Counted from the first letter of the whole stretch, positions 11,553-37,285 are shown. The stretch is 61,076 nt of DNA, filler included, from 6 parts of 6 records of this genome joined end to end with filler, not necessarily neighbours in it; one strand, 5' to 3'. Made by a program: numbers and translations. The notes: generated by a model not told the origin, from the letters alone.

Positions 11553-11689
11553 ATCTTCCACGAACCTTGGAGGGCTACAGTGCATTACCGACTTTTAGGC
11601 AGTTGCGCGCAGCTAAGCCTCCATAGGTGCCTGTCGAAGTAAAGGCGCGGCCTCGGCCTGACGCCGCTATCCAACTGGGGGATACCAGA

Positions 11690-13951
11690 ATGAAGACCAC
11701 CAAGATGCCGGCGCGTGTGCCGGGGTCACTGCGGACCCATGCCCGCATGCCAGCCAGCGCGACACAGACCGGCGGTGCAGCGCTGTTCACGGCCGCCTGC
11801 GTTGCCGCCAGTATGATGACGCCCGCCTTTGCCGCCGACGCGCCCAAAACGGGTGACGATGTAGCTGTCGAGCTGCCCGAACTTCTGGTGGAAGGCAGCG
11901 ACGAGCGCGGTGCCAACCCCTATGCCGATCCGGCAGCGCCCTACAAGGTGGACCGCTCCGCCAGTGGCAAAATCTCACAGGACATTCTCGACTTCTCCAA
12001 AGAAGTCACAATCATTCCGAAAGAAGTGATTACGGATGCCGGTGCCACATCGGTTAAAGACGTTATCCGCACACAGCCCGGCATCACCATTGGCACAGGC
12101 GAAGGTGGCAATGCTCTGGGTGACCGTTTCATTATTCGTGGCTTTGAAGCCCGTGGTGACGTCCTTGTCGATGGCCTGCGTGATCCCGGTGTTGTGAGCC
12201 GCGAAACATTTGCGCTGGAACAGATCGAAATTTCCAAAGGCCCGGATTCGACCTTTGCCGGTCGCGGTACCACAGGCGGCGCGATCAACATGATCACCAA
12301 GATGCCGCAATCCCAGACCTTCACCAAGGTTTCAACGGGTATCGGCACGGACGAGTATAAACGCGTGACGGTTGATACCAATCAGGTGGTCGGTGACAAT
12401 TTTGCCTTCCGCGTCAACGGTATGTGGCATGACAGCAATGTGGCGGGCCGCAGCGACGATGTGGATGTCTTTGATGACCGTTGGGGTGGCGCGGCCGCTT
12501 TTGAATGGCAGGCATCCGAGAAGTTCACTCTGCTCGGCGACTATTACCATCTTTCTACGGACTCAATGCCGGACTTTGGTGTGCCGTGGAACGCCACAAC
12601 CAACAGCCCTTATCTCGTCAATGGCGAAGACAAGTTCTACGGCCAGATCAACCGCGACTTCTGGGAAACCACACAGGATGTCGCCACCATCAATGGCCAG
12701 TACCAGATTAACCCCAACCTTCTGTGGAGCACGCAGGCCCGTTACGGCCACGCCACTAACGACTATGTCGTCGGCGCGCCTGAAGGTCCGAACCTCACGC
12801 TTGACACGGTACGCTCCAGCGCAAAATCGCGCCGGCAGAGCTGGGATTTCTATGGTGTCCTCAGCACGCTCGCCTATGACTTCAAAACCGGTCCCTTTGG
12901 TCACAATCTGATCACTGGCGTTGAAGCGACATATGAAAAGAGCATCAATCCGGGCTGGACGGGACAGAGCAATGTCACAATCGACATCAACAACCCCGAC
13001 AACTACGCCTGGGTTGGCGCCATCACCAAGAACAACTCGCCAACCTCCAGTCACATCCGCACACAAGCTCTCTTCGTGTCGGACACGATGACGATCACCG
13101 ATCAATGGCAGATCTTTGGCGGACTTCGTCTCGACCACTACAGCATGATTCAGGAACAGAGCATTGGCGGCGGCAGCCCCTATCCTGAAACATCAGGCGA
13201 TACGAACACAATGTTCGTAAACTGGCACGCCGGCGTCACCTTCAAGCCAGTGCCCAATGGCAGTATCTACGCATCCTTTGCCTCTTCCTCGAACCCGCCC
13301 GGTGCCCTGTCTGATAGCACAAGTGCGGCTTACGGCGGCAACACCACGGCCATTCAGTCAATCGATGCCGAACGCATCCTGTCCTACGAACTGGGTACCA
13401 AATGGGAGCTGTTCAATCAGCACCTCCTCCTCACAGGCTCGGTTTTCCAGATCGACCGGACAGGCGGTCTTGATGTCATCGTCGCAGGTGAAGGTGAAGG
13501 CGAAAAGCGCGTGCGCGGTGTTGAAGTTGGCTTTGCTGGCAATGTGACTGAAAAACTCAGCCTCATCGGTGGCGCATCGCTTCTTGATGCTCAAGTTATC
13601 GAAAGCCCGTCAGGGCCCGGTGTGATGGTCAATACCGCGGAATCGAGCGGCTACATCCAGGCCAAATATGCGGTCACGGATGCATGGTCGGTCGGCAGCA
13701 CCGTCACCTATACGGGCAAGATCTACGGTGGCACCTATTCTGCCAACCGTGAAACGGGCAAGACAGTTGACGACTGGACCCGCGTTGACCTGATGTCCGA
13801 CTATCAGATCACACCCGATGCCAAACTGCGCCTCAATGTGCTGAACGTCTTTGACGAGCTTTACTATGACGCGCTCTATCGTAGCGGCACACCGTTTGTC
13901 TTTGTTGCCCCCGGCCGTTCCGCTGTGGTGACACTCGACTATACGTTCTGA
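11690..13951 (+). CDS. TonB-dependent siderophore receptor (Fiu/PiuA-like)
   Basis: Plug motifs PGIT.GTGEGGN..GD..IRGF and E.IE..KGP.S...GRG..GG.IN; C-terminal LNV.N.FDE.YY...PGRS...Y.F; adjacent piuC; ATG 11690 follows GGGGGA. Confidence 0.93.
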   Translation: MKTTKMPARVPGSLRTHARMPASATQTGGAALFTAACVAASMMTPAFAADAPKTGDDVAVELPELLVEGSDERGANPYADPAAPYKVDRSASGKISQDILDFSKEVTIIPKEVITDAGATSVKDVIRTQPGITIGTGEGGNALGDRFIIRGFEARGDVLVDGLRDPGVVSRETFALEQIEISKGPDSTFAGRGTTGGAINMITKMPQSQTFTKVSTGIGTDEYKRVTVDTNQVVGDNFAFRVNGMWHDSNVAGRSDDVDVFDDRWGGAAAFEWQASEKFTLLGDYYHLSTDSMPDFGVPWNATTNSPYLVNGEDKFYGQINRDFWETTQDVATINGQYQINPNLLWSTQARYGHATNDYVVGAPEGPNLTLDTVRSSAKSRRQSWDFYGVLSTLAYDFKTGPFGHNLITGVEATYEKSINPGWTGQSNVTIDINNPDNYAWVGAITKNNSPTSSHIRTQALFVSDTMTITDQWQIFGGLRLDHYSMIQEQSIGGGSPYPETSGDTNTMFVNWHAGVTFKPVPNGSIYASFASSSNPPGALSDSTSAAYGGNTTAIQSIDAERILSYELGTKWELFNQHLLLTGSVFQIDRTGGLDVIVAGEGEGEKRVRGVEVGFAGNVTEKLSLIGGASLLDAQVIESPSGPGVMVNTAESSGYIQAKYAVTDAWSVGSTVTYTGKIYGGTYSANRETGKTVDDWTRVDLMSDYQITPDAKLRLNVLNVFDELYYDALYRSGTPFVFVAPGRSAVVTLDYTF

Positions 13952-13969
13952 TCTGAACGGCTAGAATAG

Positions 13970-14009
13970 ACGGCAGGCCGGACCATTTCCGGCCTGCCGT
14001 TCTTTTATT
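13970..14009 (+). terminator. Intercistronic terminator/stabilising hairpin
   Basis: 13-bp stem ACGGCAGGCCGGA/TCCGGCCTGCCGT followed by TCTTTTATT. Confidence 0.75.
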
Positions 14010-14018
14010 GAGGCTTCC

Positions 14019-14702
14019 ATGCTTATCACCATTCCCGATCTCCTCAGCAAAGACGAAGTGTCCGCAATGCGCGCGGAAATGGACAAGGCCGACTGGATTG
14101 ATGGAAAAGTAACCGCAGGCGAACAATCAGGCGCGGTCAAACATAACCAGCAGATCAAGGAAGGTACGGCCCTTGCCAATGCGCTTGGCGATAAAGTGCT
14201 GGATGCGTTGGCCCGCAACGAGACATTTGTCTCGGCCTCTCTCCCCCTCAAGATTTTTCCACCGCTGTTCAACCGCTATCAGGGCGGCGGCCATTTCGGC
14301 ACCCATGTGGATAATGCGATCCGCATCGTGCCGGGCACGCCTGTACGTGTGCGCACTGATCTGTCGATGACACTCTTTCTCAGTGAGCCCGACGAGTATG
14401 AAGGCGGCGTTTTGACGGTCGAGGATAATTACGGCACGCAGGAAGTGAAGCTCAACGCTGGTGACATCGTGCTTTATCCCTCCAGCAGCCTCCACCACGT
14501 CACGCCGGTCACACGCGGGGCGCGCGTCTCGTCATTTTTCTGGTTGCAAAGCATGGTGCGCGACGATGGCGAACGCACATTGCTATTCGATCTCGACATG
14601 TCAATCCGCACCCTTGCCGCCACGCATGGCAGCAACGATCCTGAAGTGGTGCGCCTCAGCGGCATCTATCACAATCTGCTGCGCCGCTGGGCCGACACGT
14701 AA
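14019..14702 (+). CDS. piuC: PKHD-type Fe(II)/2-oxoglutarate hydroxylase (PiuC/YbiX)
   Basis: PPLFNRY, HVDNA, RTDLS.TLFL..P.EY.GG.L and [15 protein letters not shown] motifs; C-terminal YHNLLR.WA. Confidence 0.93.
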
Positions 14703-14710
14703 AAATCGCC

Positions 14711-16291
14711 TCAGATTTTCTTATCACCCTGCCAATAGCGGTCGCGGATCGTGCGCCGAACGATCTTGCCCGACGGCATACGCGGCAGATCATCGGTGAA
14801 GTCCACCGAGCGTGGACGCTTGTAGCTCGGCAGGCGCTCGGCGGCGAAAGCCACAATCTCGGCAGCAAGTTTGTCTGATGGCGCAACACCTTCGTTCAGC
14901 TGCACCACGGCTTTGATCTCCTCGCCCCATTCCTCGTTGGGCACACCCACCACAGCCACGTCATAGACATCGGGATGTTCCAGCACCTCCTGATCGATCT
15001 CGACGGGATAGATATTCACGCCGCCCGAAATGATCACTTCCGCACTTCGGCCTGTGAGATAGAGAAATCCATCGGCATCGATGTAACCCATATCGCCCAT
15101 CGTATAGTCATTGCCGCGATAGGCACCTTCGGTCTTTTCGGGGGCTTTGAAATATTCAAACCGTCCCTGTTCGGGGGCCTGAAAATACACCGTACCCACT
15201 TCGTCGGGGTTGGCTTCTTCGCCATTGTCATTGATGATCCGCACCACCACACCGGGCAGCGGCTTGCCGACCGAGCCGGGCTTGGCTTTCCATTCATGGC
15301 TGTCGACGAAAATGCCGCCACCCTCGGTCGCCGCGTAATATTCAAAGACCACCGGCCCGAACATATCGATCGAGCGTTCCTTCACATGGGTCGGGCACGG
15401 GGCCGCACCATGCAGGATCCAGCGTAGGCTCGAAAAATCATATTTCGCGCGCGTCGCTGCATCGAGGCTCAGAATACGGTGCAGCATGGTGGGCACAACA
15501 TGCGTATGTGTCACGCGATGCTCCTGCACAAGACGCAGAGTTTCTTCTGCATCCCATTTATCCATGATGACGCAGCCGACACCGGCATTGATCGGAAAAC
15601 TCAAATTCAGCGCCAGCGGTGCGGCGTGGTAGAGCGGGCCTGTTACAAGCGCTATATCACCCGGCTTGAAGGCCGCGGTTTCCGTCAGCTTCACCAGCAA
15701 GGGTGATACAGGCGCGGCCTCACGACGAAACACACCCTTGGGGTGCCCTGTCGTGCCGGATGTGTACATCATCTGGGTGCCAAGCACCGGATCATCTATA
15801 TTGCTATCCTCTTCGGCATTGATCGCATCGTCATAGAGGATAAATCCGTCAATCGCGCCGCCCACGCAAAGCCGTGCGATGAGACCAGGCGACATTGCCT
15901 CTGCTTCTCCCGCTGATCCCTTAAAACGCGCATCGGCGACAAATGCCTTCGCCTCGCAATTTTCGACAATATAGCCGACCTCCTTGCCCGTGAGATGCCA
16001 GTTCACGGGCGTCATGCGAAATCCACCGCGCTGACATGCGACCACGGTCTCCACGAATTCTGGCCGGTTGGAACAGAGCAAGGCTACCGCATCGCCCGCT
16101 TTGAGGCCCGCTCGTCGCAAAGCGCGAACAAGCTTATTGGCCTTGGCATTCAGTTCGCCATAGGTCCGGTTTCCAGCTTCGGAAATGATGGCTGGTTTGT
16201 CGGGGTTCTCACCAGCATGAAATGCAATCACCATCCCATTGGCTGCCGCTTCCTCACGCGTCATGCCTGACCCTATTTGCGACACATTCAT
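14711..16291 (-). CDS. Acyl-CoA synthetase / AMP-binding protein
   Basis: YTSGTTGHPKG, YYAATEG, GDMGYID.DG.LY..GR and LPR.PSGK motifs. Confidence 0.93.
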   Translation of the reverse strand: MNVSQIGSGMTREEAAANGMVIAFHAGENPDKPAIISEAGNRTYGELNAKANKLVRALRRAGLKAGDAVALLCSNRPEFVETVVACQRGGFRMTPVNWHLTGKEVGYIVENCEAKAFVADARFKGSAGEAEAMSPGLIARLCVGGAIDGFILYDDAINAEEDSNIDDPVLGTQMMYTSGTTGHPKGVFRREAAPVSPLLVKLTETAAFKPGDIALVTGPLYHAAPLALNLSFPINAGVGCVIMDKWDAEETLRLVQEHRVTHTHVVPTMLHRILSLDAATRAKYDFSSLRWILHGAAPCPTHVKERSIDMFGPVVFEYYAATEGGGIFVDSHEWKAKPGSVGKPLPGVVVRIINDNGEEANPDEVGTVYFQAPEQGRFEYFKAPEKTEGAYRGNDYTMGDMGYIDADGFLYLTGRSAEVIISGGVNIYPVEIDQEVLEHPDVYDVAVVGVPNEEWGEEIKAVVQLNEGVAPSDKLAAEIVAFAAERLPSYKRPRSVDFTDDLPRMPSGKIVRRTIRDRYWQGDKKI

Positions 16292-20463: not shown

Positions 20464-20484
20464 CACCTCGCGCGTCACAAAGAC

Positions 20485-20524
20485 AAAAGGCCAAGGCATC
20501 ATCTGCCTTGGCCTTTTTTGTTTT
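20485..20524. terminator. Bidirectional Rho-independent terminator
   Basis: AAAAGGCCAAGGCA-tcatc-TGCCTTGGCCTTTTTT between convergent genes. Confidence 0.85.
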
Positions 20525-21611
20525 ATTTCTTGTCCGACGTATCCGGCCCCAGAAAGACAAACTTCTTAGCTTCCTCACCCTGCAACCCCACAAGGAAGGG
20601 CGCGAAAGACCCCGGCAGCGTGATCACGTCGTAAAGCTCTTCCACCGAACCCGTAATATCGATGCGGTGTTCGATCTCGCCTGTGGTGATGTTGACCATA
20701 TAGATGCCGCAGACGGGTTCGACACCGCGCTTGCGCAATTCTTCGTCCAACGGCAAGCCTTCAAAGACTTTGTTGCGCGGTTTTGAAATGCCGATAATCG
20801 CATAGTCGCCGATGAAGCGCAGACCGCGCACAAACCCCGGACACCACGCCACCTGCACGAATTTGTCGGTCTGACGGTCCACATAGCCAAACCAGCCCGT
20901 GCCCGCTTCCAGCACCCAGAGCTTGCCGCGATAGAGGCGCGGCGAATGCGGCATCGCAAGCCCCTCGCACACCACTTTGTCGCCACGCATATCCATGACC
21001 ATGCCGCCATCGGCGCGATGATCGCGCCATCCGCCACGCACATTGGAATTGCCGATCAGTGTCACATAGGCAGGGATACCATTCTCAAGGCAGAAGCCGT
21101 TCAGATGGCAGCGGTCCTCGTTGACGATACGGTCGATAAAGGGCGGGCGCCAGATCGGATTGAAACTGCCACGCATATCGAGGCTCGCCACACAATTATA
21201 GCCTGTGGCCACGGTTAGAAGCCGATCTTTGCGATCAATCGCCAGATCATGCACATCCACTGCGCCGGTCACATGGGCTTGCCGCGGTAGATAGAGCCGG
21301 TCCCAGCCTTCATAGAGCTGGCCTGGCAAGAGCGAATTGGCAAACCGCCAAACCTGATGGCGCATGGACAGCATGAAGCCGTCATCGGTCGGTGCAATTG
21401 CCATGGCCATGTCGAATGTGCGCTCAGAGACAGCAAAGCCGCTGCGCCCGCGCCCGATCATCACCACTTTGCCCGCGGCATAAGTCGAAAAGGCAATGCC
21501 CGCATCATGACGTGCCAGCCAGGCCTGAAAGCCCGGCGTGAAGTTCAGATGAAAGGGAGCTTTCAACTCCTTCTGGGCGTCATCGCCTGCAACCATGGGG
21601 GTCGTTGCCAT
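20523..21611 (-). CDS. TIGR03032 family (DUF4915) protein
   Basis: YLPR..HVTG.VDVHD, F.P.WRPPFI....EDRCHLNG, GL.MPHSPRLY.G.LW.L..GTG and CPGF.RGL.F motifs. Confidence 0.88.
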   Translation of the reverse strand: MATTPMVAGDDAQKELKAPFHLNFTPGFQAWLARHDAGIAFSTYAAGKVVMIGRGRSGFAVSERTFDMAMAIAPTDDGFMLSMRHQVWRFANSLLPGQLYEGWDRLYLPRQAHVTGAVDVHDLAIDRKDRLLTVATGYNCVASLDMRGSFNPIWRPPFIDRIVNEDRCHLNGFCLENGIPAYVTLIGNSNVRGGWRDHRADGGMVMDMRGDKVVCEGLAMPHSPRLYRGKLWVLEAGTGWFGYVDRQTDKFVQVAWCPGFVRGLRFIGDYAIIGISKPRNKVFEGLPLDEELRKRGVEPVCGIYMVNITTGEIEHRIDITGSVEELYDVITLPGSFAPFLVGLQGEEAKKFVFLGPDTSDKK

Positions 21612-22607
21612 TTATCTCTCCTCGGATCGTATCACCGGCGTATTTGCCGCCGGATCATCTCTCCGGTCAAAATTCGGATCGAAATTCAAATCGGCCAATA
21701 GCACCTTTTTGATCGATCGTGTCAGCGTCTCTTCATCCATCTTGCGCACTCTATTGAAGCGCGTTTGAAGATAGTCATCGGCATCGGCGCAAAACCACAT
21801 CCAGTGATCGCGCTTTGCCATGCGGCTGTCACGTGCCGCGTGGCGCTCTAACCGCTGCAACAGTTCTTCCCCGATAGCCAGGGGCACATTGTCATCCATC
21901 ACATAGTCATAAGCGGGCTGGAATTTCTTGTGCAGGTTCATCGGGAACAAATAGGTGTTGCGACTCTCAAACCGCATGCTGCCATCCTTGTCAAACAGGA
22001 TCGCAGGAAAGAAGGGCGCAAGATTGGGAAAATAGCGGTTGGGAATGATTCTGCACTTCCAGTAGTGCCGCGCCACACCGGCAAATTCGAAAAACGAACC
22101 CAGATTATTGAAATTTGCTTCCGAGAGCGGCAGCATCTCCACCTTGATCTTTTTGGGATCGACAGTGTCATTGGCCACATCGAGATAGTAGGAACCGACC
22201 TGTATGGCGTTCTGAAAATAACCACCACGCAGCGCGCCCCATACCCGCTTGATTACACCGCCCGCGCGTACAAACTCATGCATCGCCAGCATACCTGTCA
22301 TATGAGCGGGAACAGGTTCGCGCGACAATTGTGCCAGCATATGGCGCGTAATTTCGAGGCAGAAACTGAGGGGATATTTGGCAGGATCAGCCGACAAGCC
22401 CTCATCGCCCTTGACCGCGCCTTCGGCAGCCCGGTTTCTAAAATGCCGGTCTGTGTTGACGCGCAACTCCAGCATATCGCGGATAATTTCGTCGATACGG
22501 GGCACGATGATTCGTTCGGTCAGCGCCTGCACTGCAGGCGTCACGGGCTGCAGACTGTCAGCCTTGTAGCGTGCGATCAGGCCGTCTACTGAAAATTGAG
22601 TGCTCAT
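21612..22607 (-). CDS. Conserved hypothetical protein (possible transglutaminase/papain-like fold)
   Basis: 331-aa ORF with SD CAGGGGA; motifs KYPLSFCLEIT, WGALRG.YFQNAIQ.G.YY.DVANDTV and YW......N..FP.LAP.FP; its stop abuts the next ATG. Confidence 0.75.
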   Translation of the reverse strand: MSTQFSVDGLIARYKADSLQPVTPAVQALTERIIVPRIDEIIRDMLELRVNTDRHFRNRAAEGAVKGDEGLSADPAKYPLSFCLEITRHMLAQLSREPVPAHMTGMLAMHEFVRAGGVIKRVWGALRGGYFQNAIQVGSYYLDVANDTVDPKKIKVEMLPLSEANFNNLGSFFEFAGVARHYWKCRIIPNRYFPNLAPFFPAILFDKDGSMRFESRNTYLFPMNLHKKFQPAYDYVMDDNVPLAIGEELLQRLERHAARDSRMAKRDHWMWFCADADDYLQTRFNRVRKMDEETLTRSIKKVLLADLNFDPNFDRRDDPAANTPVIRSEER

Positions 22608-22690
22608 AGAATTCCCCTGTCGCTGATTATACAGAATTCAGCATCAGAGCAATGCCTGCAAGTTTCTGGGACCATTGGTGGCTGGAATAG

Positions 22691-22721
22691 AAAAACGGGG
22701 CTGTGATGATCACAGCCCCGT
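22691..22721 (-). terminator. Rho-independent terminator after autotransporter
   Basis: ACGGGGCTGTGA-tga-TCACAGCCCCGT stem with AAAAA at 22691-22695. Confidence 0.85.
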
Positions 22722-22751
22722 CTTCATATGTGTTCGCGTATCAGATGCGTC

Positions 22752-25700
22752 TTACCATTCGAGACGGGCACCCAGCTTCACGCCGCTGGAATTGCCGTTG
22801 TCGCCGCCATAGCCGCCGTCATAGGAGACAAAGGCGGTAAGACCGTTGCCGAAAGTGACATCCACTGCCGCACCCAGCGCCGCGTATGTATTGTCACGCG
22901 TATCGAGTGTCGAGGTGAAGGCACCGCCAGTGGTGTTGAATGTGCCCGAAGCGGTCTGGTCGCCTGCGCGCCACTCCTGCGCCAATGCCGCACTCACTGC
23001 CGGACGGATTGCCCATGCACTGTCAGGGGCTTTGATAGTCACGGCAAGTTCCGCGCCCACGCTGCCACGATAGGTTTCGCTCGTCACGTCACCCACCGAC
23101 ATGCCGCCCGTGCCGCCACCCGTTTCCGTGTAGCCTTCACGTGCCACATGCTGCCAGCCAAGATTGGCTTTCGGCGTCAGTGTCCAGTTGCCCTGGATCG
23201 GGATCGTGTGACCGATCCCCACGCCCGCACCTGTGGTCCAAGCCGTCGGCGATCCATTGGCATTGACCAATGTGCCGCCCGACAGGACCGTACGCTGGAT
23301 ATCCATATCCTGATAACCGGCTGTCACGGCACCCGTCAGGAACGTGTTGCCCATGACGTAATTGGCATAAACGGCTGTGTTGAAACCGTCGATCGTTGTG
23401 CGCGAGCCGCCACCGGATGTTCTAACCGTGCTGTCGATATAGCCACCGGCCAGACCGATGGACAGATTGCCGGTCTTGAAGAGTTCGCCACCGATTGCGC
23501 CGCCAGTGCTGCGCTGCTCGTAGCCACGGGCAAAACCGTCACCCGAGCGGGTGTCGTTCTGCCACAGACCTGTGCCCCACAGACCCTTATTGTGACCGGC
23601 GCCATTGCGCGCCTGACCCAACACAGCATCAAGGAAGCTAAAGCTCGAGGCCGAAGCGCCGCCCACCGAACCGTTGACGCTCGAAGGCGAGGCAGTGGTC
23701 AACGATGCCGTGGTGCCGGTATAGACAATCGCACCGTTCACCACCGTGAATGTACCCGTCACGCCGCCTGTCGAAGTCAGGAAGTCACCAGAGAAGCCGT
23801 CAGCACCACCAAGGAACTGTGGAACGATAGTTGCTCCGGCTGCCACAGTGGCTGTACCGGGTGCGCCAAACACGTTCACGAGATCGGCCACGCCGTTCTC
23901 GATCTGGATGACGAGCTGCGAACCGGCTGCGAAGTTCACGCTGCCATTGATATTCAGAGTTCCGGGCGAATTGCCGGGCGAGATCGTGCCGTAGTTGGTG
24001 ACCGCGCCATAGATCGTGCCGCTACCACCCAGCGTACCGCCGGTATTCACGGTCACACCACCTTCATCAGCATAGAGGTGACCATTGACCTTAAATGTAC
24101 CGCTATTGATCGTTAGCTGATTGACCTCAACATATTCGGTCAAATTCCAGATGCCCGTTGCATCCACCGTCATATCGTCAATGCCGAGAATTTCGTCATT
24201 GAACGTGCCCGCGCCTAGAAGCACCAGATCGTTATTGCTGCCTTCACTGCTGATATCGCCATACACAACAGCAGAATCCAGCGTCAGCAAATTGTTGGAA
24301 GCTTCAAGACTGATGGCAGCGCCTTCAAAGCCCGCAACCGTACCCGCCAAAACAATCGTATTGTTTGAGCCGCTCACATCAATACCTGTGCCGCCATAGA
24401 CTGACGCATCGGAACCGACGTTGATGCTGCTATTCGAACTGTGCAGCACGATGCCTGTGTCACCGCCAAAGACCGAGGAAGACCCGTTCAGGGTAATGCT
24501 CGTCTCGTTGCCCGTTGTGGCAATACCAAAGCCGTAATCGGAACTCACGACGGCAGAATCGTTCAGCGTCAGGTTAAACCCGTCTGTTTCGCCCGACGTC
24601 AGAATAGCCGTATTGTTGGAGCCGTAGCCATGTGTGCGAACAGCGGATGTGCCGTTCAGCGTGATTGTTCCATTGTCTCCGGTCGCATAAATGCCGACAA
24701 CCGAGAATGAGTATTTAAAGCCCGCTGATCCATAAACATCAATGCTGGAGGAGCCGTTCAGCACGATCGCTGTATTGTCACCGCTGGCAAAAACACCAAC
24801 GGCCTGACCGCCAGTTTCAGCAGTCGTAAGAACTTTGATCGACGACGCTCCATTCAGGGCAATCGTACTGGCATTACCGGCGCTGAAAACACCAAGATAC
24901 TTATTCTCGTCGCCACCGGTGCCGATGATGTTGATGGCGGAGTCATTCAACGTTATGTCGCTGGCATATTTGGATTCACCCGTCGCAATAACATTGATGC
25001 CGACATACTTGTTATCCGCGCCGCCATGCGCGTTCACATTGACCGACGAGCCGCCGTTCAGCGTGATCGATCCTGCGTCATCCGAATAGGAGCCGGTAGA
25101 AATGACATTGATGCCGGTATATTTGCTTTCAGTGCCGCCATAGGCGTTGATCGTCACATCCGATCCGCTGTTCAGCGTGACCAGCGACTCAAGACCGCCA
25201 CCATAAATGCCGGAATATTTGTTCGAATAACCGTTAGCCGCGAAGACATTGATGCTCGATCCGTCATTCAGCGTAACTGAAGGGGCAGAGCCACTACCAG
25301 AACCGAAGACCACACCGGCGCTCTGCGCATCCGTCGTACCGCTATAGGCACCGTAAAGTGTGATATCAGAACCACCGTTCAGCGTCAGCGAAGCCACTTC
25401 ATCTGCATATTTGCTTCCGGAGCCGATCATCACCCCGATGATATCGCTATCATTGACGCCGCCTTGCGTGCGTTCCACCACAACACTGGAACCGCCGTTC
25501 AGCGTTACAGAACTGCCGTCGCCACGCGCATAGATGCCCACATATTTCGAGATGCCATCATCCGAGCGGGCAGTGACTTCGACGCTCGACCCGCCGTTCA
25601 GTGTCACGCTGTTGTGGTCGCCATAGCTGACCAGGCCGGTATATTTACCGGAGGCAAGGCCACCATAGCCTTCAAGAATGATCTGCGAACCACCGTTCAG

Positions 25701-26057
25701 CGTCACCGTGTTGTCGTCGCCATAAACGAAGACAGAATATTCGTCGCCATAGGTCTGCGCGATCGAACCGGCACCCAGTGTCACTGTGTTGCTGTCGCCA
25801 TAAAGGCCAATTACGTTTCTGCCTGCATTATACAGTTCCGCATCCGCGTTCAGTGTGATCGTCGCATCATCGGCCGAACCACGGATCGAACCGTAATTAT
25901 AGCCGGAGCAAACAATATCAACGCCATCATCAAGCGGGCCGCCGACGCAAACACTTATAGGATCGGCCGCCGCCGCCGGTGTGGAAATGATGCCGAGGAA
26001 TACAGTACCGGCAGCCGCCAATGCGGACGTGCCCAGCAAGCGGGTGCGCAAGCTCAT
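22752..26057 (-). CDS. Autotransporter (type Va): beta-helical repeat passenger plus outer membrane beta-barrel
   Basis: Signal peptide LLGTSAL...PAAAA; many VTLNGGSS-type repeats; GGTLGGSGTI.G.V.N.GTISPGNSPGTL junction; barrel with YTETG and a C-terminal aromatic (LGARLEW); start ATG 26057 or TTG 26069. Confidence 0.9.
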   Translation of the reverse strand: MSLRTRLLGTSALAAAGTVFLGIISTPAAAADPISVCVGGPLDDGVDIVCSGYNYGSIRGSADDATITLNADAELYNAGRNVIGLYGDSNTVTLGAGSIAQTYGDEYSVFVYGDDNTVTLNGGSQIILEGYGGLASGKYTGLVSYGDHNSVTLNGGSSVEVTARSDDGISKYVGIYARGDGSSVTLNGGSSVVVERTQGGVNDSDIIGVMIGSGSKYADEVASLTLNGGSDITLYGAYSGTTDAQSAGVVFGSGSGSAPSVTLNDGSSINVFAANGYSNKYSGIYGGGLESLVTLNSGSDVTINAYGGTESKYTGINVISTGSYSDDAGSITLNGGSSVNVNAHGGADNKYVGINVIATGESKYASDITLNDSAINIIGTGGDENKYLGVFSAGNASTIALNGASSIKVLTTAETGGQAVGVFASGDNTAIVLNGSSSIDVYGSAGFKYSFSVVGIYATGDNGTITLNGTSAVRTHGYGSNNTAILTSGETDGFNLTLNDSAVVSSDYGFGIATTGNETSITLNGSSSVFGGDTGIVLHSSNSSINVGSDASVYGGTGIDVSGSNNTIVLAGTVAGFEGAAISLEASNNLLTLDSAVVYGDISSEGSNNDLVLLGAGTFNDEILGIDDMTVDATGIWNLTEYVEVNQLTINSGTFKVNGHLYADEGGVTVNTGGTLGGSGTIYGAVTNYGTISPGNSPGTLNINGSVNFAAGSQLVIQIENGVADLVNVFGAPGTATVAAGATIVPQFLGGADGFSGDFLTSTGGVTGTFTVVNGAIVYTGTTASLTTASPSSVNGSVGGASASSFSFLDAVLGQARNGAGHNKGLWGTGLWQNDTRSGDGFARGYEQRSTGGAIGGELFKTGNLSIGLAGGYIDSTVRTSGGGSRTTIDGFNTAVYANYVMGNTFLTGAVTAGYQDMDIQRTVLSGGTLVNANGSPTAWTTGAGVGIGHTIPIQGNWTLTPKANLGWQHVAREGYTETGGGTGGMSVGDVTSETYRGSVGAELAVTIKAPDSAWAIRPAVSAALAQEWRAGDQTASGTFNTTGGAFTSTLDTRDNTYAALGAAVDVTFGNGLTAFVSYDGGYGGDNGNSSGVKLGARLEW

Positions 26058-26232
26058 ATTTATCTTCAAGATAATTCCCCAATAAATCCCTGCGTCCGAC
26101 ACAATGCGGACGTCAGACTACTCACGGTAGCGCATTTTGCGACTCACCGTGAGCACTTCGTAACACCAATCAGATTAAGAATATCGAATTTCGTAGGAAT
26201 AAAAAACCTACCGGGACGATTTCTTCGCCACC

Positions 26233-26712
26233 CTAAACTTCGATCCGGAAATGGTCGAACCAATAGGCTCTGATCTGCCGTCCTTTGGAATTATATCCGA
26301 TCAGCACCAGTCCGGCTGGCAGCACCGGCTTCCGGCCATAGCCCGGCGCCGTGATGACGGCGGCATACCCTGCCACTTTCTCCTGCGGATTGGCTTTGGA
26401 CCACTCGCGCAGCACCTCGCGGGCATGAATGGTCAGGGGCACCGAAACGCCAGATTTTTCTACGTCGGGATGCATCAGAATGCGCAGTTCGGCAAATTTC
26501 TGGCGCACCTGCTCCAGATAGCGCACTTCCGCCGTGGTCACTCCCACCACGCGATCTCCTTGATAGGCGATTGAGACAATTTGCTTGGCCCGCTGGCGTG
26601 GGTCAACATCGGACGGCAACATGCGCGTTTCCTGCCAGAAGGCGACCACATCCTCCTCGCATTTTGCATCATTGCACTGCCAGGCTGGCACATAACGAAT
26701 ATTGTCAGGCAT
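26233..26712 (-). CDS. Hypothetical protein, GNAT-like fold suspected
   Basis: 159-aa ORF with SD AGAGGA; pattern AFW....LP......[17 protein letters not shown]...RILMHPD resembles acyltransferase beta strands. Confidence 0.65.
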
Positions 26713-26821: not shown

Positions 26822-27167
26822 ATGCATGATCTCGTGATCAAAGGCGGCACTGTTTATGACGGCACGGGTGCAGCCCCTGTCGAGGCCGACATCGCCATCG
26901 ACAATGGCGTCATCTCCGCCATCGGCAAGCTTTCGGCGGGCGGCCGCGAGGAAATCGACGCCAAGGGCCAGATCGTCACGCCGGGCTTCATCGACGTTCA
27001 CACCCATTATGATGGTCAGGTCACATGGGACCCCTATCTCCAACCCTCCACCTTCCATGGTGTCACCACCGCCGTCATGGGCAATTGCGGTGTCGGCTTT
27101 GCCCCCTGCAAGCCTGAACAGCGCGACTGGCTGCTTAGCCTGATGGAAGGTGTCGAGGATATTCCCG
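26822..27167 (+). CDS. N-acyl-D-amino-acid deacylase family amidohydrolase (5' partial gene, cut by contig end)
   Basis: [20 protein letters not shown] and [18 protein letters not shown]; paralogue of 6288-8012. Confidence 0.9.
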
Positions 27168-27267
27168 NNNNNNNNNNNNNNNNNNNNNNNNNNNNNNNNN
27201 NNNNNNNNNNNTTAATTAATTAANNNNNNNNNNNNNNNNNNNNNNNNNNNNNNNNNNNNNNNNNNNN
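27168..27267. other. Artificial contig spacer
   Basis: 44 N + TTAATTAATTAA (stops in all frames) + 44 N. Confidence 0.99.
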
Positions 27268-28613
27268 CCGATGGTCATGCCGAAACCGGCGAGATAGCCC
27301 TCACCCAGAATGCTTCCGGCCATGATTTCCCCCGCCGCCCAGACATTTTCGAGTTTCTTTCCAGCCATGGTCACCCGTGCCGTCTCGTCCACCTTGAGGC
27401 CGAGATAGGTAAAGGTGACGCCGGGACGCAGCGAATAGCCGTAGAACGGCGGCTCCGTGATCGGTCTTGCCCAGTTGGTTTTCTGCGGCTCGACACCATC
27501 CGTCGCCAGTCCGTCCAGCTCCGTCGGATGGAAATCGCCTTCCCGGCAGGCCGCGTTGAAAGCGTCGACCGTCTCCCGCAGCTTCGCGGCGGGGAGGCCC
27601 ATCTGTTCCGCCAGCCCCTCCAGCGTGTCCGACTGCACCGCCGGGAAAACCGAAGGCATGAAGAGCGTGCTGCTCTTGGCATCGATGATCGAATAGGCGA
27701 TCTGATCGGGCTGGGCGGCGACGAGGCGCCCCCAGATGGCATAGCGCTTCGGCCAGACATCCTCCCCCTCGTCGTAGAAGCGTTCACCGTTCTTGTTCAC
27801 AACAACGGAGAACGGCACGCAATCGAGCCTTGTGACGATACCGCCATCGAATTTCGGTGCCCGTCCGTCGATAGCGACGGCGTGGCACTGGGTCGGGTCG
27901 CCGACAGAGTCCGCGCCCTGATCCAGCATGTCCTTCAGAACGACGCCCCGGTTATACGGCGTACCCCGGATCAGGAAATTCCTGGCCGCCGGACCCCAGG
28001 CACGGGCCAGCCAGTCGATATCGCCCTGGAAACCGCCGGAGGCGAGCACGATGGCGCGGCCGACCACCCGGCTGGGCGCGGCCCCCGCGATCTCCACCTC
28101 GACCGCCTGAAACCGCCCATCCTGGATTTCGACATGTTTCACCTGCGCCTCGTAAACCACCTCGACACCGAGGTCGGCCGCCGTGTTGTAATAGGCATTC
28201 ACCAGGGCCTTGCCTCCGCCGAGGAAAAACGCATTGGTTCGTCCCAGCGACAGGGTTCCAGATAGAGACGGCTGAAACCGGACGCCATGGGCTTCCATCC
28301 AGGGCAGACATTTCTCCGATGTCCGGATCGCCAGCCGGGCCAGCCCCTCGTCCGTGTTGCCCTTGGTCACGCGCAGCAGATCGTCGAAATATTCATCCTC
28401 TGCATAAGTATCCGTCAGGACCGACAGCGGCCCCTGATGCATGCAGCGAAAATTCCGTGTGTGGCGCGAATTGCCGCCGCGATAAGTTTTCGGGGCGCCT
28501 TCCAGGATGATCACCCGGCAACCGGCTTCGGCTGCTTCGATGGCCGCGCACAGGGCTGCGTTTCCACCGCCGACAACGACGACATCCCACACTTTATTGG
28601 TAATTTCAGACAG
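27268..28613 (-). CDS. tcuA: FAD-dependent tricarballylate dehydrogenase TcuA-like (3' end truncated)
   Basis: DVVVVGGGNAALCAA, RGGNSRHTRN, RTNAFFLGGGKAL, CHAVAID.RAPKFDGGIVTR and GYLAGFGMTI; likely CTG start at 28613 behind GAAGGAG. Confidence 0.88.
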
Positions 28614-28682
28614 GGCTTCTCTCCTTCGGCGGGCCGTTCGGCCAAGCATCATGCGATGCCGGTCAGCGGCCTTCTTGGAAGG

Positions 28683-28712
28683 ATTGTATACAATGTTTCT
28701 TCGTGCAGTCAA
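28683..28712 (-). promoter_or_regulatory. Sigma70 promoter overlapped by palindrome ATTGTATACAAT (GntR-type operator)
   Basis: Minus strand TTGACT (28712-28707), 18 nt spacer, TACAAT; perfect palindrome at 28683-28694. Confidence 0.7.
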
Positions 28713-35873: not shown

Positions 35874-36806
35874 ATGAGCAAGGGATCGTTGCACGATTCA
35901 GATTCCTGTTTGCGTACAGAGACTACGCCTGCAGAACCAAGCTCCGGCGATAGGCTGGACGAGCGATTGACGGATTCTCGTCAAAAACCCAGAGTTTCGT
36001 CAGGCCAAGGCTTCGACACCCTGACCTCGGCCCTGAAAGACTGGGCAGAAGGTCCCTTTCACCTTGACGAACAACGCCAGCTGCCAGCCAACAAGACACC
36101 AACCTCGCAAGCACTCAACACCATCGAATTCGAGATATTCAAAATCACCGAGATGGCCCGGCGATGGATCGTCGAGAACGGCCTCTCGCCCTATAAACTC
36201 GCACTGACCACAGGGACATCCCCAAGCCAGGTCCATCGCATCATGGAGCCCGGCTGGACACCCTCGCTGAAACTTGCACGGCGCATCGCCTCGTCCCTGC
36301 CCGATGACTGGGTCAGCATGTTCGAGCGCGACTGCAATGCCTGCTTGCCGCGTATTTTCCATCTGCACCCTTCACCGGACAACTCCTCCGATCCGGTCAC
36401 GCGTCTGCTTCATGCCATGACCGGCACCGATACAGTGCACATCCTGGACACTTTGGTGGAGGACAAATGGAGCGTTCGTCATCACGCGTATGTTTCCCGC
36501 GCAGAGACGGAAATGTTCATGGCGAATCACACAACTTCCGGCCTTATCGAAACCGATTATGCGCCACCGCTTCCGCGCATGAGCTGGTCCGCCGATGCAA
36601 AGGAGCCGAAAACTCCGAACTGCGCGTTACTCCTTCACCGGGTTCCGCTCAAGGTGGGTGAGAAGCTGAAGCTCTATACGATCCATATCGCCGAATATTC
36701 CGGGAAGAACTGGGCGACCCAATTCTGGAAAGTCGATACCAGCAAGGATCTGACCAGCCTGCGGCAGTTGGATATTCTGAAAGCCTATCTGGCCGAGAAA
36801 GCCTGA
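35874..36806 (+). CDS. Hypothetical protein with central XRE-like helix-turn-helix
   Basis: 310-aa ORF; GLSPYKLALTTGTSPSQVHRIMEPGWTPSLKLARRIA is HTH-like; start uncertain. Confidence 0.6.
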   Translation: MSKGSLHDSDSCLRTETTPAEPSSGDRLDERLTDSRQKPRVSSGQGFDTLTSALKDWAEGPFHLDEQRQLPANKTPTSQALNTIEFEIFKITEMARRWIVENGLSPYKLALTTGTSPSQVHRIMEPGWTPSLKLARRIASSLPDDWVSMFERDCNACLPRIFHLHPSPDNSSDPVTRLLHAMTGTDTVHILDTLVEDKWSVRHHAYVSRAETEMFMANHTTSGLIETDYAPPLPRMSWSADAKEPKTPNCALLLHRVPLKVGEKLKLYTIHIAEYSGKNWATQFWKVDTSKDLTSLRQLDILKAYLAEKA

Positions 36807-37285
36807 CCCGGTCCCTGTTTTGCCGGACGGCCAGCGATATAGGTCTCCACGACAGCACGATCGTCTCCGAGGGTCTGCAGGACGAAAAGCTCTTCCTGCA
36901 GACTTTCCACCGTCTCCATACGCAACGCCATGACATCCGTCGCGCGGCTGTTCAGCACTGTGATATCGGCGTCCGTATCCGGCTCCAGTGTGCCGATCCG
37001 GTCTTCCAGCGTGAGCGCACGAGCATTGCCAAGGCTGGCCCAGTAGAAGCTGCGCAGCGGGTCGATATTCTGGCCGCGCAATTGCAGCGCCTTGTAGCCC
37101 TCATCCAGGGTCCGCAGCATGGAATAGTTCGTGCCGCCGCCGACATCCGTGGCGATGGCCCGCCGGACGCCTGCTTCCTTCAGCCCCGCCTCGTCATAGA
37201 GACCACTGCCGAGGAACAGGTTGGAGGTCGGGCAATAGACCGCGACCGAGCCGGTCTCCGCCATCCGGTCCCGCTCCCGGTGGGT
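36785..37285 (-). CDS. guaD: Guanine deaminase (3' part; 5' end beyond contig)
   Basis: CPTSNLFLGSGL, ATDVGGGT..SML, LF.L.TLGDDRAV.ETYIAG. Confidence 0.92.
   Translation of the reverse strand, partial: THRERDRMAETGSVAVYCPTSNLFLGSGLYDEAGLKEAGVRRAIATDVGGGTNYSMLRTLDEGYKALQLRGQNIDPLRSFYWASLGNARALTLEDRIGTLEPDTDADITVLNSRATDVMALRMETVESLQEELFVLQTLGDDRAVVETYIAGRPAKQGPGQAFSAR

What the first reader, a model, noticed from the sequence alone, without database searches (positions are those of the whole stretch)
20523..26712. Autotransporter flanked by three uncharacterised putative enzymes: candidate surface-protein modification system
Seen: four co-oriented minus-strand genes bounded by a convergent terminator (20485) and a divergent gene (26822): a GNAT-like hypothetical (26233-26712), the autotransporter (22752-26057), a Cys-motif hypothetical (21612-22607) and TIGR03032/DUF4915 (20523-21611). 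The last two are coupled (TAA directly followed by ATG, SD inside the upstream gene). None of the three accessory proteins has an obvious signal peptide, so they could act before export. Known: some autotransporters have dedicated adjacent modifying enzymes (AIDA-I/Aah, TibA/TibC); TIGR03032 has no assigned function. Inference: a new autotransporter maturation pathway acting on the repeated Lys-Tyr sites. Caveat: a terminator at 22691-22721 separates the autotransporter from the downstream pair.
Basis: partly seen in the sequence, partly recalled or inferred. Interest (0 to 1): 0.75.

Follow-up and report, generated by a model that had tools for sequence, protein, structure and literature searches.

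The report
Autotransporter with three candidate modifying partners
An outer-membrane surface protein gene sits among three cytoplasmic proteins of unknown function, and one of them, a beta-propeller of unknown function, turns out to be encoded next to giant surface proteins in many unrelated bacteria, which points to an undescribed surface-protein maturation system.

Summary
The four co-oriented genes, both terminators and the TAA-ATG coupling are as described.

**Cross-genome evidence**
- **DUF4915/TIGR03032 (20523-21611)** folds as a six-bladed beta-propeller with about 48 invariant residues. In 14 of 15 plasmids that encode it, a large exported repeat protein lies within two genes; five of these are autotransporters from three alphaproteobacterial orders.
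- **DUF4915 fusions:** of 120 listed longer homologues, 64 are fused to TPR-GT41 glycosyltransferases and 52 to GNAT acetyltransferases.
- **The 331-aa protein (21612-22607)** belongs to a small family with no Pfam model and no match among solved PDB structures. The family is fused to SapC, glycosyltransferases, a methyltransferase-regulatory domain or an acyl carrier domain. In 29 of 80 loci it lies near giant secreted proteins, type I secretion genes or GT41 genes.
- **The 159-aa protein** is a divergent GNAT at family level only.

**Reading**
A cytoplasmic, pre-export modification or maturation module for the autotransporter is the best explanation (about 0.6). The chemistry is unknown. The proposed Lys-Tyr target is real as a repeat motif but is not shared by other DUF4915-linked surface proteins. 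I found no paper naming these families.

The parts
26233..26712 (-). 159-aa cytoplasmic protein, a divergent GNAT-fold family member and candidate acyl/acetyl-transferase
   Evidence: ORF and start are supported by 159-160-aa homologues. Eight of 22 family members hit the GNAT models PF13508 or PF00583, best E 6e-6, but the window's own protein does not. A profile-profile comparison aligns the family to the GNAT part of DUF4915-GNAT fusions at E 8.8e-4, probability 23%. In the Atlas search the top cluster carries PF00583 in 13% of members. Homologues lie directly upstream of the autotransporter in L001 and L004.
22752..26057 (-). Classical (type Va) autotransporter of 1101 aa: signal peptide, repeat passenger, C-terminal beta-barrel
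   Evidence: PF03797 E 3.3e-44. Hydrophobic N-terminus. About 12 repeats carrying LN[GD][GSTA] and 9 Lys-Tyr sites. Orthologues or paralogues sit in the same position in L001-L004, as tandem arrays in L002 and L003.
24678..25700 (-). Passenger repeat region carrying the [SN]-K-Y-x-G motif (about residues 120-460)
   Evidence: Nine KY against 0.7 expected. Positions 138, 171, 216, 280, 312, 350, 363, 386, 448. Repeat markers are spaced at about 31-40 residues.
22818..23582 (-). Autotransporter beta-barrel domain
   Evidence: PF03797 covers its full profile length, 1-255 of 255. Coordinates are converted from residues 841-1095 of the 1116-aa ORF.
22691..22721 (-). Intrinsic terminator after the autotransporter, followed by a TATAAT box ahead of the 331-aa gene
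   Evidence: Perfect palindrome, -27.6 kcal/mol, then U5.
21612..22607 (-). 331-aa cytoplasmic protein of an unnamed family with no known fold match; probably an enzyme
   Evidence: No Pfam, NCBIfam or PDB sequence match. The model has pLDDT 89.9, yet Foldseek against PDB gives no hit at E <= 1e-3. Invariant R49, D53, Y78, P79, D143, D147 and near-invariant C83. The family has 439 clusters among 1.84 billion representatives. Fusions and neighbours are listed.
20523..21611 (-). DUF4915/TIGR03032 protein: six-bladed beta-propeller, translationally coupled to the 331-aa gene
   Evidence: Pfam and NCBIfam matches. TAA-ATG junction. The model has pLDDT 91.2 and gives generic propeller matches. 48 invariant columns, including D166-R-C-H-L-N-G172 and M220-P-H-S-P-R225. 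76-87% identical to the copies in L001-L004. Adjacent to large surface proteins in 14 of 15 plasmids.
20485..20517 (.). Two-way intrinsic terminator that closes the cluster against the convergent enoyl-CoA hydratase gene
   Evidence: 14-bp stem with T runs on both strands; -27.3 kcal/mol.
26822..27166 (+). Truncated remnant (first 115 residues) of a divergent amidohydrolase gene; marks the upstream edge
   Evidence: Only positions 1-70 of the Amidohydro_3 profile are matched. 85% identical to residues 1-115 of the intact 581-aa orthologue in L001.

Best explanation
The cluster encodes a classical autotransporter together with three cytoplasmic accessory proteins. These most likely act on the unfolded passenger before Sec export, either as modifying enzymes or as a maturation aid.

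The conserved core partner is the DUF4915 beta-propeller. Its family is encoded beside, or fused to transferases that sit beside, giant exported repeat proteins of several export types. These include autotransporters, RTX/cadherin/FG-GAP proteins, and choice-of-anchor and IPTL-CTERM proteins.

The translationally coupled 331-aa protein and the divergent GNAT are add-ons specific to this clade. They would supply or assist a group transfer, with acyl or acetyl the most likely group here because no glycosyltransferase is present.

**What is shown:** gene order, coupling, folds, family fusions and neighbourhoods.

**What is inferred:** that the autotransporter is the substrate, that the step happens in the cytoplasm, and the chemistry.
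For: **1. DUF4915 neighbours on plasmids.** tblastn found 15 plasmid records. In 14 of them a large exported repeat protein lies within two genes.
- Autotransporters: Phyllobacterium, Novosphingobium sp. P6W (two copies), two N. resinovorum plasmids (stop and start overlap), and Loktanella.
- Choice-of-anchor Q giants: Planctomyces and Synechocystis 6714.
- An IPTL-CTERM protein with a PMP repeat, next to a hydroxylase-sulfotransferase fusion: Diaphorobacter.
- FG-GAP, cadherin, VCBS, Ig or RTX proteins: Acaryochloris, Gloeothece and four Nostoc plasmids.
- Control: two arbitrary 50-kb stretches of two of these plasmids hold 0 autotransporters and 1 surface protein among 82 CDS.

**2. DUF4915 fusions.** By my count of the 120 listed longer homologues, 64 carry GT41, 52 carry GNAT and 4 carry both. 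Others carry sulfotransferase, GT2, GT4, GT9 or NodZ domains. GT41 includes HMW1C, which glycosylates an adhesin in the cytoplasm (PMC3983070, passages read). The fused GNAT best matches protein N-acetyltransferases in PDB: YpeA, RimI, Naa10/30/60.

**3. DUF4915 looks like an enzyme.** It has 48 invariant columns, including His, Cys, Arg and Asp motifs. It is as conserved as housekeeping neighbours: 86-87% against 81-90% for the hydratase and Kup.

**4. The 331-aa family.**
- Fusions: SapC in 7 of 28 long forms tested and in L049 and L070; GT4-type in 2; MethyTransf_Reg in 1; GT41 in L067; an acyl carrier domain in P0028, P0033, L007 and L009.
- 29 of 80 loci hold a large exported repeat protein (19), type I secretion parts (9) or GT41 (10).
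- Annotated examples: an RTX protein followed by the homologue, beside a type I secretion system, in Rhodospirillum rubrum; and a DUF4347 giant-TolC-HlyD-homologue operon in Niveispirillum.

**5. In this window.** The TAA-ATG junction couples the two families. All three accessory proteins lack hydrophobic segments. The order GNAT-autotransporter(s)-331-aa-DUF4915 recurs in L001 and L004. L004 has a different downstream flank, a DEAD helicase gene.
Against: - No chemical modification has been observed, and nothing identifies a donor or an acceptor.
- A strong terminator separates the autotransporter from the downstream pair.
- Synteny with L001 and L003 continues through the hydratase, Kup, LpxR and AMP-ligase genes, so it is largely inherited.
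- Two Parvibaculum loci (L005, L006) carry the 331-aa homologue with neither partner nearby.
- 51 of 80 loci of the 331-aa family show no secretion-related neighbour in what was examined, and no matched random control was run for that set.
- One DUF4915 plasmid locus (Qingshengfaniella) has no surface protein. It has instead GT2, hexapeptide acyltransferase, ACP, adenylating-enzyme and SDR genes.
- The window's 159-aa protein does not itself reach any GNAT model.
- The plasmid sample is small and includes related records.
Confidence: 0.6

Rival explanations
1. The accessory proteins are not enzymes acting on the passenger. They are cytoplasmic holding or targeting factors, a propeller peptide-binding platform plus helpers, that keep very long repeat proteins export-competent.
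For: The best structural matches of DUF4915 are peptide- or ligand-binding propellers: Kelch, YWTD/LRP6 and YVTN. The partners use different export routes and repeat types, which fits a general handling role. A chaperone role has also been considered for HMW1C (PMC3983070, passages read).
Against: 48 invariant columns rich in His, Cys, Arg and Asp, with housekeeping-level conservation, are more typical of an active site. Systematic fusion to catalytic transferase domains suggests a shared chemical pathway.
Confidence: 0.15
2. The accessory genes build or tailor a glycan, lipid or other small surface molecule. They sit near surface-protein genes only because cell-surface genes cluster together.
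For: - Neighbours and fusion partners are typical of polysaccharide loci: GT2/GT4, epimerases/dehydratases, RmlA, ManC, methyltransferases, sulfotransferases, cysC/cysDN.
- The Qingshengfaniella locus has ACP, adenylating-enzyme, acyltransferase, GT2 and SDR genes followed by DUF4915, with no surface protein.
- ACP fusions of the 331-aa family follow an AMP-ligase and a GNAT gene.
Against: The window and the simple Novosphingobium and Phyllobacterium loci hold no glycan genes, only DUF4915 beside autotransporters, in one case with overlapping stop and start. GT41 and the RimI/Naa-like GNATs are protein-modifying families.
Confidence: 0.2
3. The adjacency is coincidental: four unrelated genes inherited together.
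For: A terminator lies between the autotransporter and the downstream pair. Synteny with close relatives includes unrelated housekeeping genes.
Against: 14 of 15 independent plasmid contexts pair DUF4915 with a large surface protein, against 1 of 82 CDS in the control stretches.
Confidence: 0.05

Closest known systems
TibC/TibA and Aah/AIDA-I (autotransporter heptosyltransferases, GT9-like)
   Same: A dedicated cytoplasmic enzyme is encoded next to an autotransporter and modifies repeats of the passenger before export. This is recalled; the search listing and abstract start of PMC3835316 were seen.
   Different: No GT9 or any other glycosyltransferase domain is present in the window. The accessory proteins belong to other families. 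GT9 appears only as a fusion partner of DUF4915 elsewhere: P0070, and a weak match at E 5e-5 in Synechocystis 6714.
HMW1C-like N-glycosyltransferases (GT41) with HMW1 and with trimeric autotransporters
   Same: Cytoplasmic modification of an adhesin before Sec export (PMC3983070, passages read; PMC4550697, listing and abstract start). GT41 is the commonest fusion partner of DUF4915. It is also fused to, or neighbours, the 331-aa family.
   Different: The window has no GT41 gene. DUF4915 and the 331-aa family are unrelated in fold to GT-B enzymes.
HlyC/CyaC-type acyltransferases that activate RTX toxins (recalled, not tested by a paper here)
   Same: A small accessory gene lies beside a type I secretion substrate, and the acyl donor is carried on an acyl carrier protein. 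The 331-aa family sits beside RTX proteins and type I secretion genes and is sometimes fused to a carrier domain.
   Different: No Pfam match of any kind, so no HlyC-family match either. The fold matches no solved structure. No acyl transfer has been shown.
SapC of the Campylobacter fetus sapCDEF S-layer locus
   Same: SapC is an accessory protein of unknown role kept with an S-layer locus (PMC4943207, passages read). That SapDEF form the type I secretion system is recalled. SapC is the commonest fusion partner of the 331-aa domain.
   Different: The window protein has no SapC domain.
Arylsulfate sulfotransferase (ASST) and other enzymatic six-bladed propellers
   Same: ASST (4p04) is among the top Foldseek matches, with TM 0.53 normalised to the query. 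Sulfotransferase and PAPS-synthesis genes recur in DUF4915 loci.
   Different: The match is no better than matches to binding propellers. There is no sequence match to any PDB propeller. ASST is periplasmic (recalled), whereas DUF4915 has no signal peptide.

Membership tests
DUF4915 / TIGR03032 | Score above the curated cut-offs of PF16261 and TIGR03032 over the full profile length | tested here: met
   PF16261: 390.9 bits (cut-off 35), profile positions 2-314 of 316. TIGR03032: 375.5 bits (cut-off 251.5).
Classical autotransporter (type Va) | C-terminal PF03797 beta-barrel | tested here: met
   E 3.3e-44, profile positions 1-255 of 255.
Classical autotransporter (type Va) | N-terminal Sec signal peptide and a long repeat passenger | tested here: met
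   Hydropathy peak of 1.80 at residue 7 and the sequence MSLRTRLLGTSALAAAGTVFLGIISTPAAAADP. About 12 passenger repeats. No dedicated signal-peptide predictor was available.
GNAT acetyltransferases (159-aa protein) | Match to a GNAT profile | tested here: inconclusive
   The window protein has no GNAT hit at E <= 1. Eight of 22 family members hit PF13508 or PF00583, best E 6e-6. Profile-profile comparison to a fused GNAT gives E 8.8e-4, probability 23%.
GNAT acetyltransferases (159-aa protein) | GNAT fold and an acyl-CoA binding loop | not tested
The P-D-V-E-K-S-G-V-S stretch lies where the fused GNATs have R-x-x-G-x-G.
Autotransporter heptosyltransferases (TibC/Aah, GT9-like) | GT9-type glycosyltransferase domain in an adjacent gene | tested here: not met
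   No glycosyltransferase family hit in any of the three accessory proteins or in the neighbouring genes.
HMW1C-like / GT41 protein glycosyltransferases | GT41 (PF13844) catalytic domain | tested here: not met
   Absent from the window ORFs I scanned (the four genes and 47 further ORFs). Present only in fused or neighbouring genes in other genomes.
HlyC-type toxin acyltransferases | Match to the HlyC family profile | tested here: not met
   No Pfam family at E <= 0.1 for the 331-aa or the 159-aa protein.
Arylsulfate sulfotransferase-like propellers | Specific structural or sequence match with the catalytic histidines in place | tested here: inconclusive
   Only a generic propeller match, TM 0.53. 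No sequence match.

The most novel reading that the evidence does not exclude
DUF4915/TIGR03032 is the catalytic core of an unrecognised post-translational modification system that spans several phyla. It would act on giant exported repeat proteins: autotransporters, RTX/cadherin/FG-GAP adhesins and sorting-signal proteins. The propeller would install or read a primary mark in the cytoplasm. Fused or neighbouring GT41, GNAT, sulfotransferase and, in this clade, 331-aa-family enzymes would then elaborate it. The 331-aa family would be a second new enzyme fold dedicated to secreted giant proteins.
Probability: 0.3. Interest if true: 0.85.

Novelty: new variant of a known kind. Interest (0 to 1): 0.72.

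Why it matters
**Candidate biological role.** Dedicated enzymes that modify adhesins before export are known from a few pathogens (TibC/Aah, HMW1C, HlyC). Here two families with no assigned function gain a concrete, testable candidate role: partners of giant surface proteins.
- One of them, DUF4915, has a Pfam and an NCBIfam model and more than a thousand fused relatives.
- For DUF4915 the link holds across Alphaproteobacteria, a betaproteobacterium, a planctomycete and cyanobacteria, and across export routes.

**Easy to test.** The simplest loci hold only an autotransporter and DUF4915, for example in Novosphingobium and Phyllobacterium. They offer a two-gene system for testing by co-expression and mass spectrometry.

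**Practical consequences if the link holds.**
- It would affect how surface adhesins and S-layer-like proteins of environmental bacteria are annotated.
- It would matter for expressing them in other hosts.
- It could reveal new protein-modification chemistry.

**Literature.** Full-text searches for DUF4915, TIGR03032, PF16261, IPR017481, DUF6447 and PF20045 found no paper.

Tried and rejected
- **Complex prediction.** DUF4915 with the 331-aa protein gave no verdict (score 0.00, controls not run). This is not evidence either way.
- **PDB by sequence.** Searches with the three proteins and with family profiles found nothing relevant. The A2 profile hit only through its fused GNAT part.
- **Foldseek.** The confident model of the 331-aa protein gave no hit at E <= 1e-3. 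Weak hits to a CHAP domain and to Rad4 are not significant. A papain-like reading (Cys at a helix start) fails for lack of a conserved His.
- **Atlas look-alikes.** Only unnamed clusters for the 331-aa protein. A 13% PF00583 lead for the 159-aa protein.
- **Profile comparison.** The 331-aa family against the extra region of DUF4915-GNAT fusions gave nothing.
- **tblastn into plasmid loci.** The 331-aa, 159-aa and autotransporter proteins against the DUF4915 plasmid loci gave no hits. phmmer of the window autotransporter against the plasmid autotransporters found no match either.
- **Lys-Tyr as a shared target.** Rejected as a general feature.
- **Rfam.** The region gave only a sub-threshold sRNA match lying on the terminator hairpin.
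- **Promoter scan.** Fewer sites than in the shuffles.
- **AMP-ligase as a system part.** The window's AMP-ligase (14711-16291) is only 26% identical to the ligases beside the carrier-domain fusions.
- **Not available.** Chromosomal neighbourhoods of DUF4915 therefore stayed unchecked, and so did the AlphaFold database.

Full report
**1. What is in the window**

- 20523-21611 is a full-length DUF4915/TIGR03032 protein (Pfam E 5.8e-117; NCBIfam 375.5 bits against a cut-off of 251.5).
- 21612-22607 encodes a 331-aa protein with no Pfam or NCBIfam match.
- 22752-26057 encodes an autotransporter. It has a complete PF03797 barrel (E 3.3e-44), a hydrophobic N-terminus and about 12 passenger repeats.
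- 26233-26712 encodes a 159-aa protein. Its start is fixed by 159-160-aa homologues.

The sequence features around the genes are also as described.
- The 331-aa gene ends in TAA directly followed by the ATG of DUF4915, with GAGGAG just upstream.
- A perfect palindrome (-27.6 kcal/mol, then U5) follows the autotransporter, and a TATAAT box follows that.
- A two-way terminator at 20485-20517 closes the cluster.
- None of the accessory proteins has a hydrophobic segment.

The upstream 'divergent gene' is a remnant. Only residues 1-115 of an amidohydrolase remain, whereas the orthologue is intact at 581 aa in a relative.

The surroundings are ordinary metabolism and transport genes: Kup, LpxR, an AMP-ligase, an enoyl-CoA hydratase, an ABC transporter and others.

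**2. Close relatives**

A scan of one genome per species with a 39-sequence alignment of the 331-aa family (A1) found 178 relatives, of which 80 loci were kept.

Only the four closest loci (L001-L004: Parvibaculum and an alphaproteobacterial MAG, 52-58% identity) also have DUF4915 directly downstream and one or more autotransporters directly upstream.
- L002 and L003 have three tandem autotransporter paralogues.
- The 159-aa homologue is upstream in L001 and, in two copies, in L004.
- Locus tags place the 159-aa homologue a few genes further upstream in the L003 genome (this is inference).

In L001 and L003 the synteny runs on through the hydratase (81%), Kup (85-90%), LpxR and AMP-ligase genes, so much of it is plain inheritance. 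L004 has a different downstream flank, a DEAD helicase gene. L005 and L006, also Parvibaculum, carry the 331-aa homologue beside GreA or CorA genes with neither partner nearby.

DUF4915 is 86-87% identical to the copies in L001-L003, which is as conserved as the housekeeping genes. The 331-aa protein is only 53-58% identical.

**3. DUF4915**

*Fold.* The model is confident (pLDDT 91.2). It is a six-bladed beta-propeller with generic matches at E about 1e-7 and TM 0.44-0.53: Kelch, YWTD/LRP6, YVTN, arylsulfate sulfotransferase and strictosidine synthase. An alignment of 52 sequences at about 40% identity has 48 invariant columns. These include H121, C140, D166-R-C-H-L-N-G172, W195-R196, M220-P-H-S-P-R225 and C301. 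That pattern looks more like an active site than a scaffold.

*Fusions.* Among proteins of 635-2000 aa, 1235 are relatives. By my count of the 120 listed:

| Partner domain | Number of 120 |
|---|---|
| GT41 (mostly with TPR) | 64 |
| GNAT | 52 |
| Both of the above (counted in each row) | 4 |
| DUF4915 only | 3 |
| GT9, GT4, sulfotransferase, GT2-type, TPR only | 1 each |

I did not search stand-alone relatives of similar length, so the ratio of stand-alone to fused forms is unknown.

*Neighbours.* tblastn against 72,556 plasmids found 15 records, and I looked at all 15.

| Adjacent protein type | Plasmids |
|---|---|
| Autotransporter, adjacent or one gene away | Phyllobacterium; Novosphingobium sp. 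P6W (two autotransporters upstream); two N. resinovorum plasmids (stop and start share a coordinate; not independent of each other); Loktanella |
| Choice-of-anchor Q protein of about 2,500 aa | Planctomyces; Synechocystis 6714 |
| IPTL-CTERM protein with a PMP repeat, divergent from an operon of an Asp/Asn-hydroxylase-sulfotransferase fusion and DUF4915 | Diaphorobacter |
| FG-GAP, cadherin-like, VCBS/calcium-binding or Ig-like proteins of 788 to more than 2,800 aa | Acaryochloris; Nostoc (three plasmids); Gloeothece |
| Unlisted ORF across the record origin with FG-GAP, cadherin, Big_9 and RTX repeats | Nostoc pNsp_b |

That makes 14 of 15. The exception is Qingshengfaniella, which has GT2, hexapeptide acyltransferase, ACP, adenylate-forming enzyme and SDR genes followed by DUF4915.

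As a small control, two arbitrary 50-kb stretches of the Phyllobacterium and Novosphingobium plasmids hold 0 autotransporters and 1 sortase-target surface protein among 82 CDS.

The fused forms sitting in these loci have these architectures:
- DUF4915-TPR-GT41
- DUF4915-GNAT-GT2-TPR-GT41
- DUF4915-GNAT
- DUF4915-TPR with a weak GT9 match

A profile that includes the fused GNAT finds protein N-acetyltransferases first in PDB: YpeA, RimI and Naa10/30/60. The adenylyl-sulfate kinase gene cysC or a sulfotransferase gene recurs in five of the 15 loci.

**4. The 331-aa family**

*Size and fold.* It is small: 439 clusters at E <= 1e-3 among 1.84 billion representatives. It has no Pfam model. The model is confident (pLDDT 89.9, pTM 0.86), yet Foldseek finds nothing in PDB at E <= 1e-3, with TM 0.16 or less. 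The AlphaFold database could not be searched. Conserved motifs are YPxGxC(L)EI, YFQNAIQxGxxYLDVANDTVD and PNxxFPxLAP.

*Fusions.*

| Partner | Where seen |
|---|---|
| N-terminal acyl carrier domain | P0028 and P0033; L007 and L009, each preceded by an AMP-ligase and a GNAT gene |
| GT41 | L067 |
| SapC | L049, L070, and 7 of 28 long representatives tested |
| GT4-type | 2 of 28 |
| MethyTransf_Reg | 1 of 28 |
| Weak DUF6447 tail | 3 of 28 |
| None | 15 of 28 |

SapC belongs to the conserved sapCDEF part of the Campylobacter fetus S-layer locus (PMC4943207, passages read).

*Neighbours in the 80 loci.*
- 19 hold a large exported repeat protein: 4 autotransporter, 11 DUF4347 giants, 2 RTX, 1 DUF5649 and 1 DUF4214/beta-helix.
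- 9 hold type I secretion parts.
- 10 hold GT41.
- The union is 29 of 80.

The other 51 show housekeeping or unrelated neighbours in what I examined. That was the whole locus for the phmmer seeds, but only two ORFs on each side for Pfam. No random control was run for this set, and several loci come from related genera.

*Plasmid contexts.* Of 18 plasmid hits I opened five; one had no annotation.
- Rhodospirillum rubrum: an RTX protein followed directly by the homologue, beside a type I secretion system.
- Niveispirillum: a DUF4347 giant-TolC-HlyD-homologue operon.
- Azospirillum B510: cysDN, a sugar dehydrogenase gene and an Ig-like giant 3.5 kb away.
- A. brasilense Sp7: unrelated neighbours.

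**5. The 159-aa family**

The search found 21 relatives. Eight of the 22 sequences hit the GNAT models PF13508 or PF00583 (best E 6e-6), but the window's own protein does not. Profile-profile comparison aligns the family with the GNAT part of DUF4915-GNAT fusions, but weakly (E 8.8e-4, probability 23%). An Atlas lead agrees. A separate GNAT gene together with a separate DUF4915 gene therefore resembles the common fused architecture. Orthology between the two GNATs is not shown.

**6. The Lys-Tyr idea**

KY occurs 9 times in the autotransporter against 0.7 expected. It takes 9 of the 16 lysines, always within [SN]KYxG of the repeat. The motif is shared by most clade paralogues (10, 7, 5, 5 and 3 copies), but one paralogue has none.

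Outside the clade it is enriched in only 3 of 12 DUF4915-linked surface proteins. One is the Loktanella autotransporter. The other two are Nostoc proteins, where it is part of the FG-GAP consensus. It is a real repeat feature, but it is not supported as the shared target.

**7. Reading**

Two independent families, each tied elsewhere to giant exported proteins and to transferases, are translationally coupled here, downstream of an autotransporter, with a GNAT-like gene upstream. The most economical explanation is a cytoplasmic, pre-export modification or maturation module. The known analogues are HMW1C (a GT41 enzyme acting in the cytoplasm; PMC3983070, passages read), TibC/Aah and HlyC (both recalled).

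| Reading | Probability |
|---|---|
| Modification or maturation module | about 0.6 |
| Chaperone-type handling | 0.15 |
| Glycan or small-molecule synthesis that merely co-locates | 0.2 |
| Coincidence | 0.05 |

None of the known families is present in the window, so this is a new variant of a known kind rather than a member of one. Full-text searches for DUF4915, TIGR03032, PF16261, IPR017481, DUF6447 and PF20045 found no paper. Subscription journals are not covered by those searches.

**8. Limits**
- Nothing biochemical is shown.
- The plasmid sample is small and partly redundant.
- The complex prediction gave no verdict.

Noticed in passing
window 26822-27223 (+), boundary near 27170-27223: The amidohydrolase divergent from the 159-aa gene is cut after about 115 residues. 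Its orthologue in L001 is 581 aa. The 3' end of a FAD-binding oxidoreductase gene (27216-28712, minus strand) abuts the break, which suggests a deletion or rearrangement boundary.
   Followed up: partly
window 36785-37264 (-) and 42939-43628 (-): Two more genes look truncated. One ORF matches only the C-terminal part of amidohydrolase profiles. The other is a purD-like ORF with the ATP-grasp and C domains but no N domain. The window may carry several gene remnants.
   Followed up: no
window autotransporter residues 37 and 50; L001-L004, L081-L083, L085, L095 autotransporters: All 12 autotransporters found beside DUF4915 have a pair of cysteines 10-13 residues apart just after the signal peptide. 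In 10 of the 12 these are the only cysteines; the other two have one extra cysteine near the N-terminus. No autotransporters lacking a DUF4915 neighbour were available as a control.
   Followed up: partly
window 11627-14702 (+); L012, L021, L027, L029, L047, L064, L072: A TonB-dependent receptor plus PKHD-type Fe(II)/2-oxoglutarate hydroxylase pair lies 7 kb from the 331-aa gene. The same pair (hydroxylase 59-62% identical) sits right beside distant 331-aa homologues in six Niveispirillum/Azospirillum-type loci. The hydroxylase alone is adjacent in L012.
   Followed up: partly
P0052: One 545-aa homologue of the 331-aa family carries intein-type domains (Hint/Vint) in the precomputed Pfam column. 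This suggests an intein inserted in the conserved core.
   Followed up: no
L089, L092, L096 (cysC); L087, L090 (sulfotransferase); L012, L041, L045, L101 (331-aa family loci): Sulfate-activation genes (cysC, cysDN) and sulfotransferases recur near both DUF4915 and 331-aa-family genes. Sulfation may be one of the modifications in these systems.
   Followed up: partly
L002 1-9951 and L003 1-9931: In two Parvibaculum genomes the single autotransporter is replaced by a tandem array of at least three paralogues between the accessory genes. Lys-Tyr counts in these paralogues range from 0 to 7.
   Followed up: partly
L001 14941-16398 and L003 15000-16451: The relatives carry an extra AMP-ligase gene between Kup and LpxR that the window lacks. 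It is 33-34% identical to the window's AMP-ligase.
   Followed up: no
window 20476-20568 (-): A sub-threshold Rfam match to the enterobacterial sRNA STnc380 (32.6 bits against a gathering score of 60) lies on the terminator hairpin. It is most likely a chance match.
   Followed up: yes
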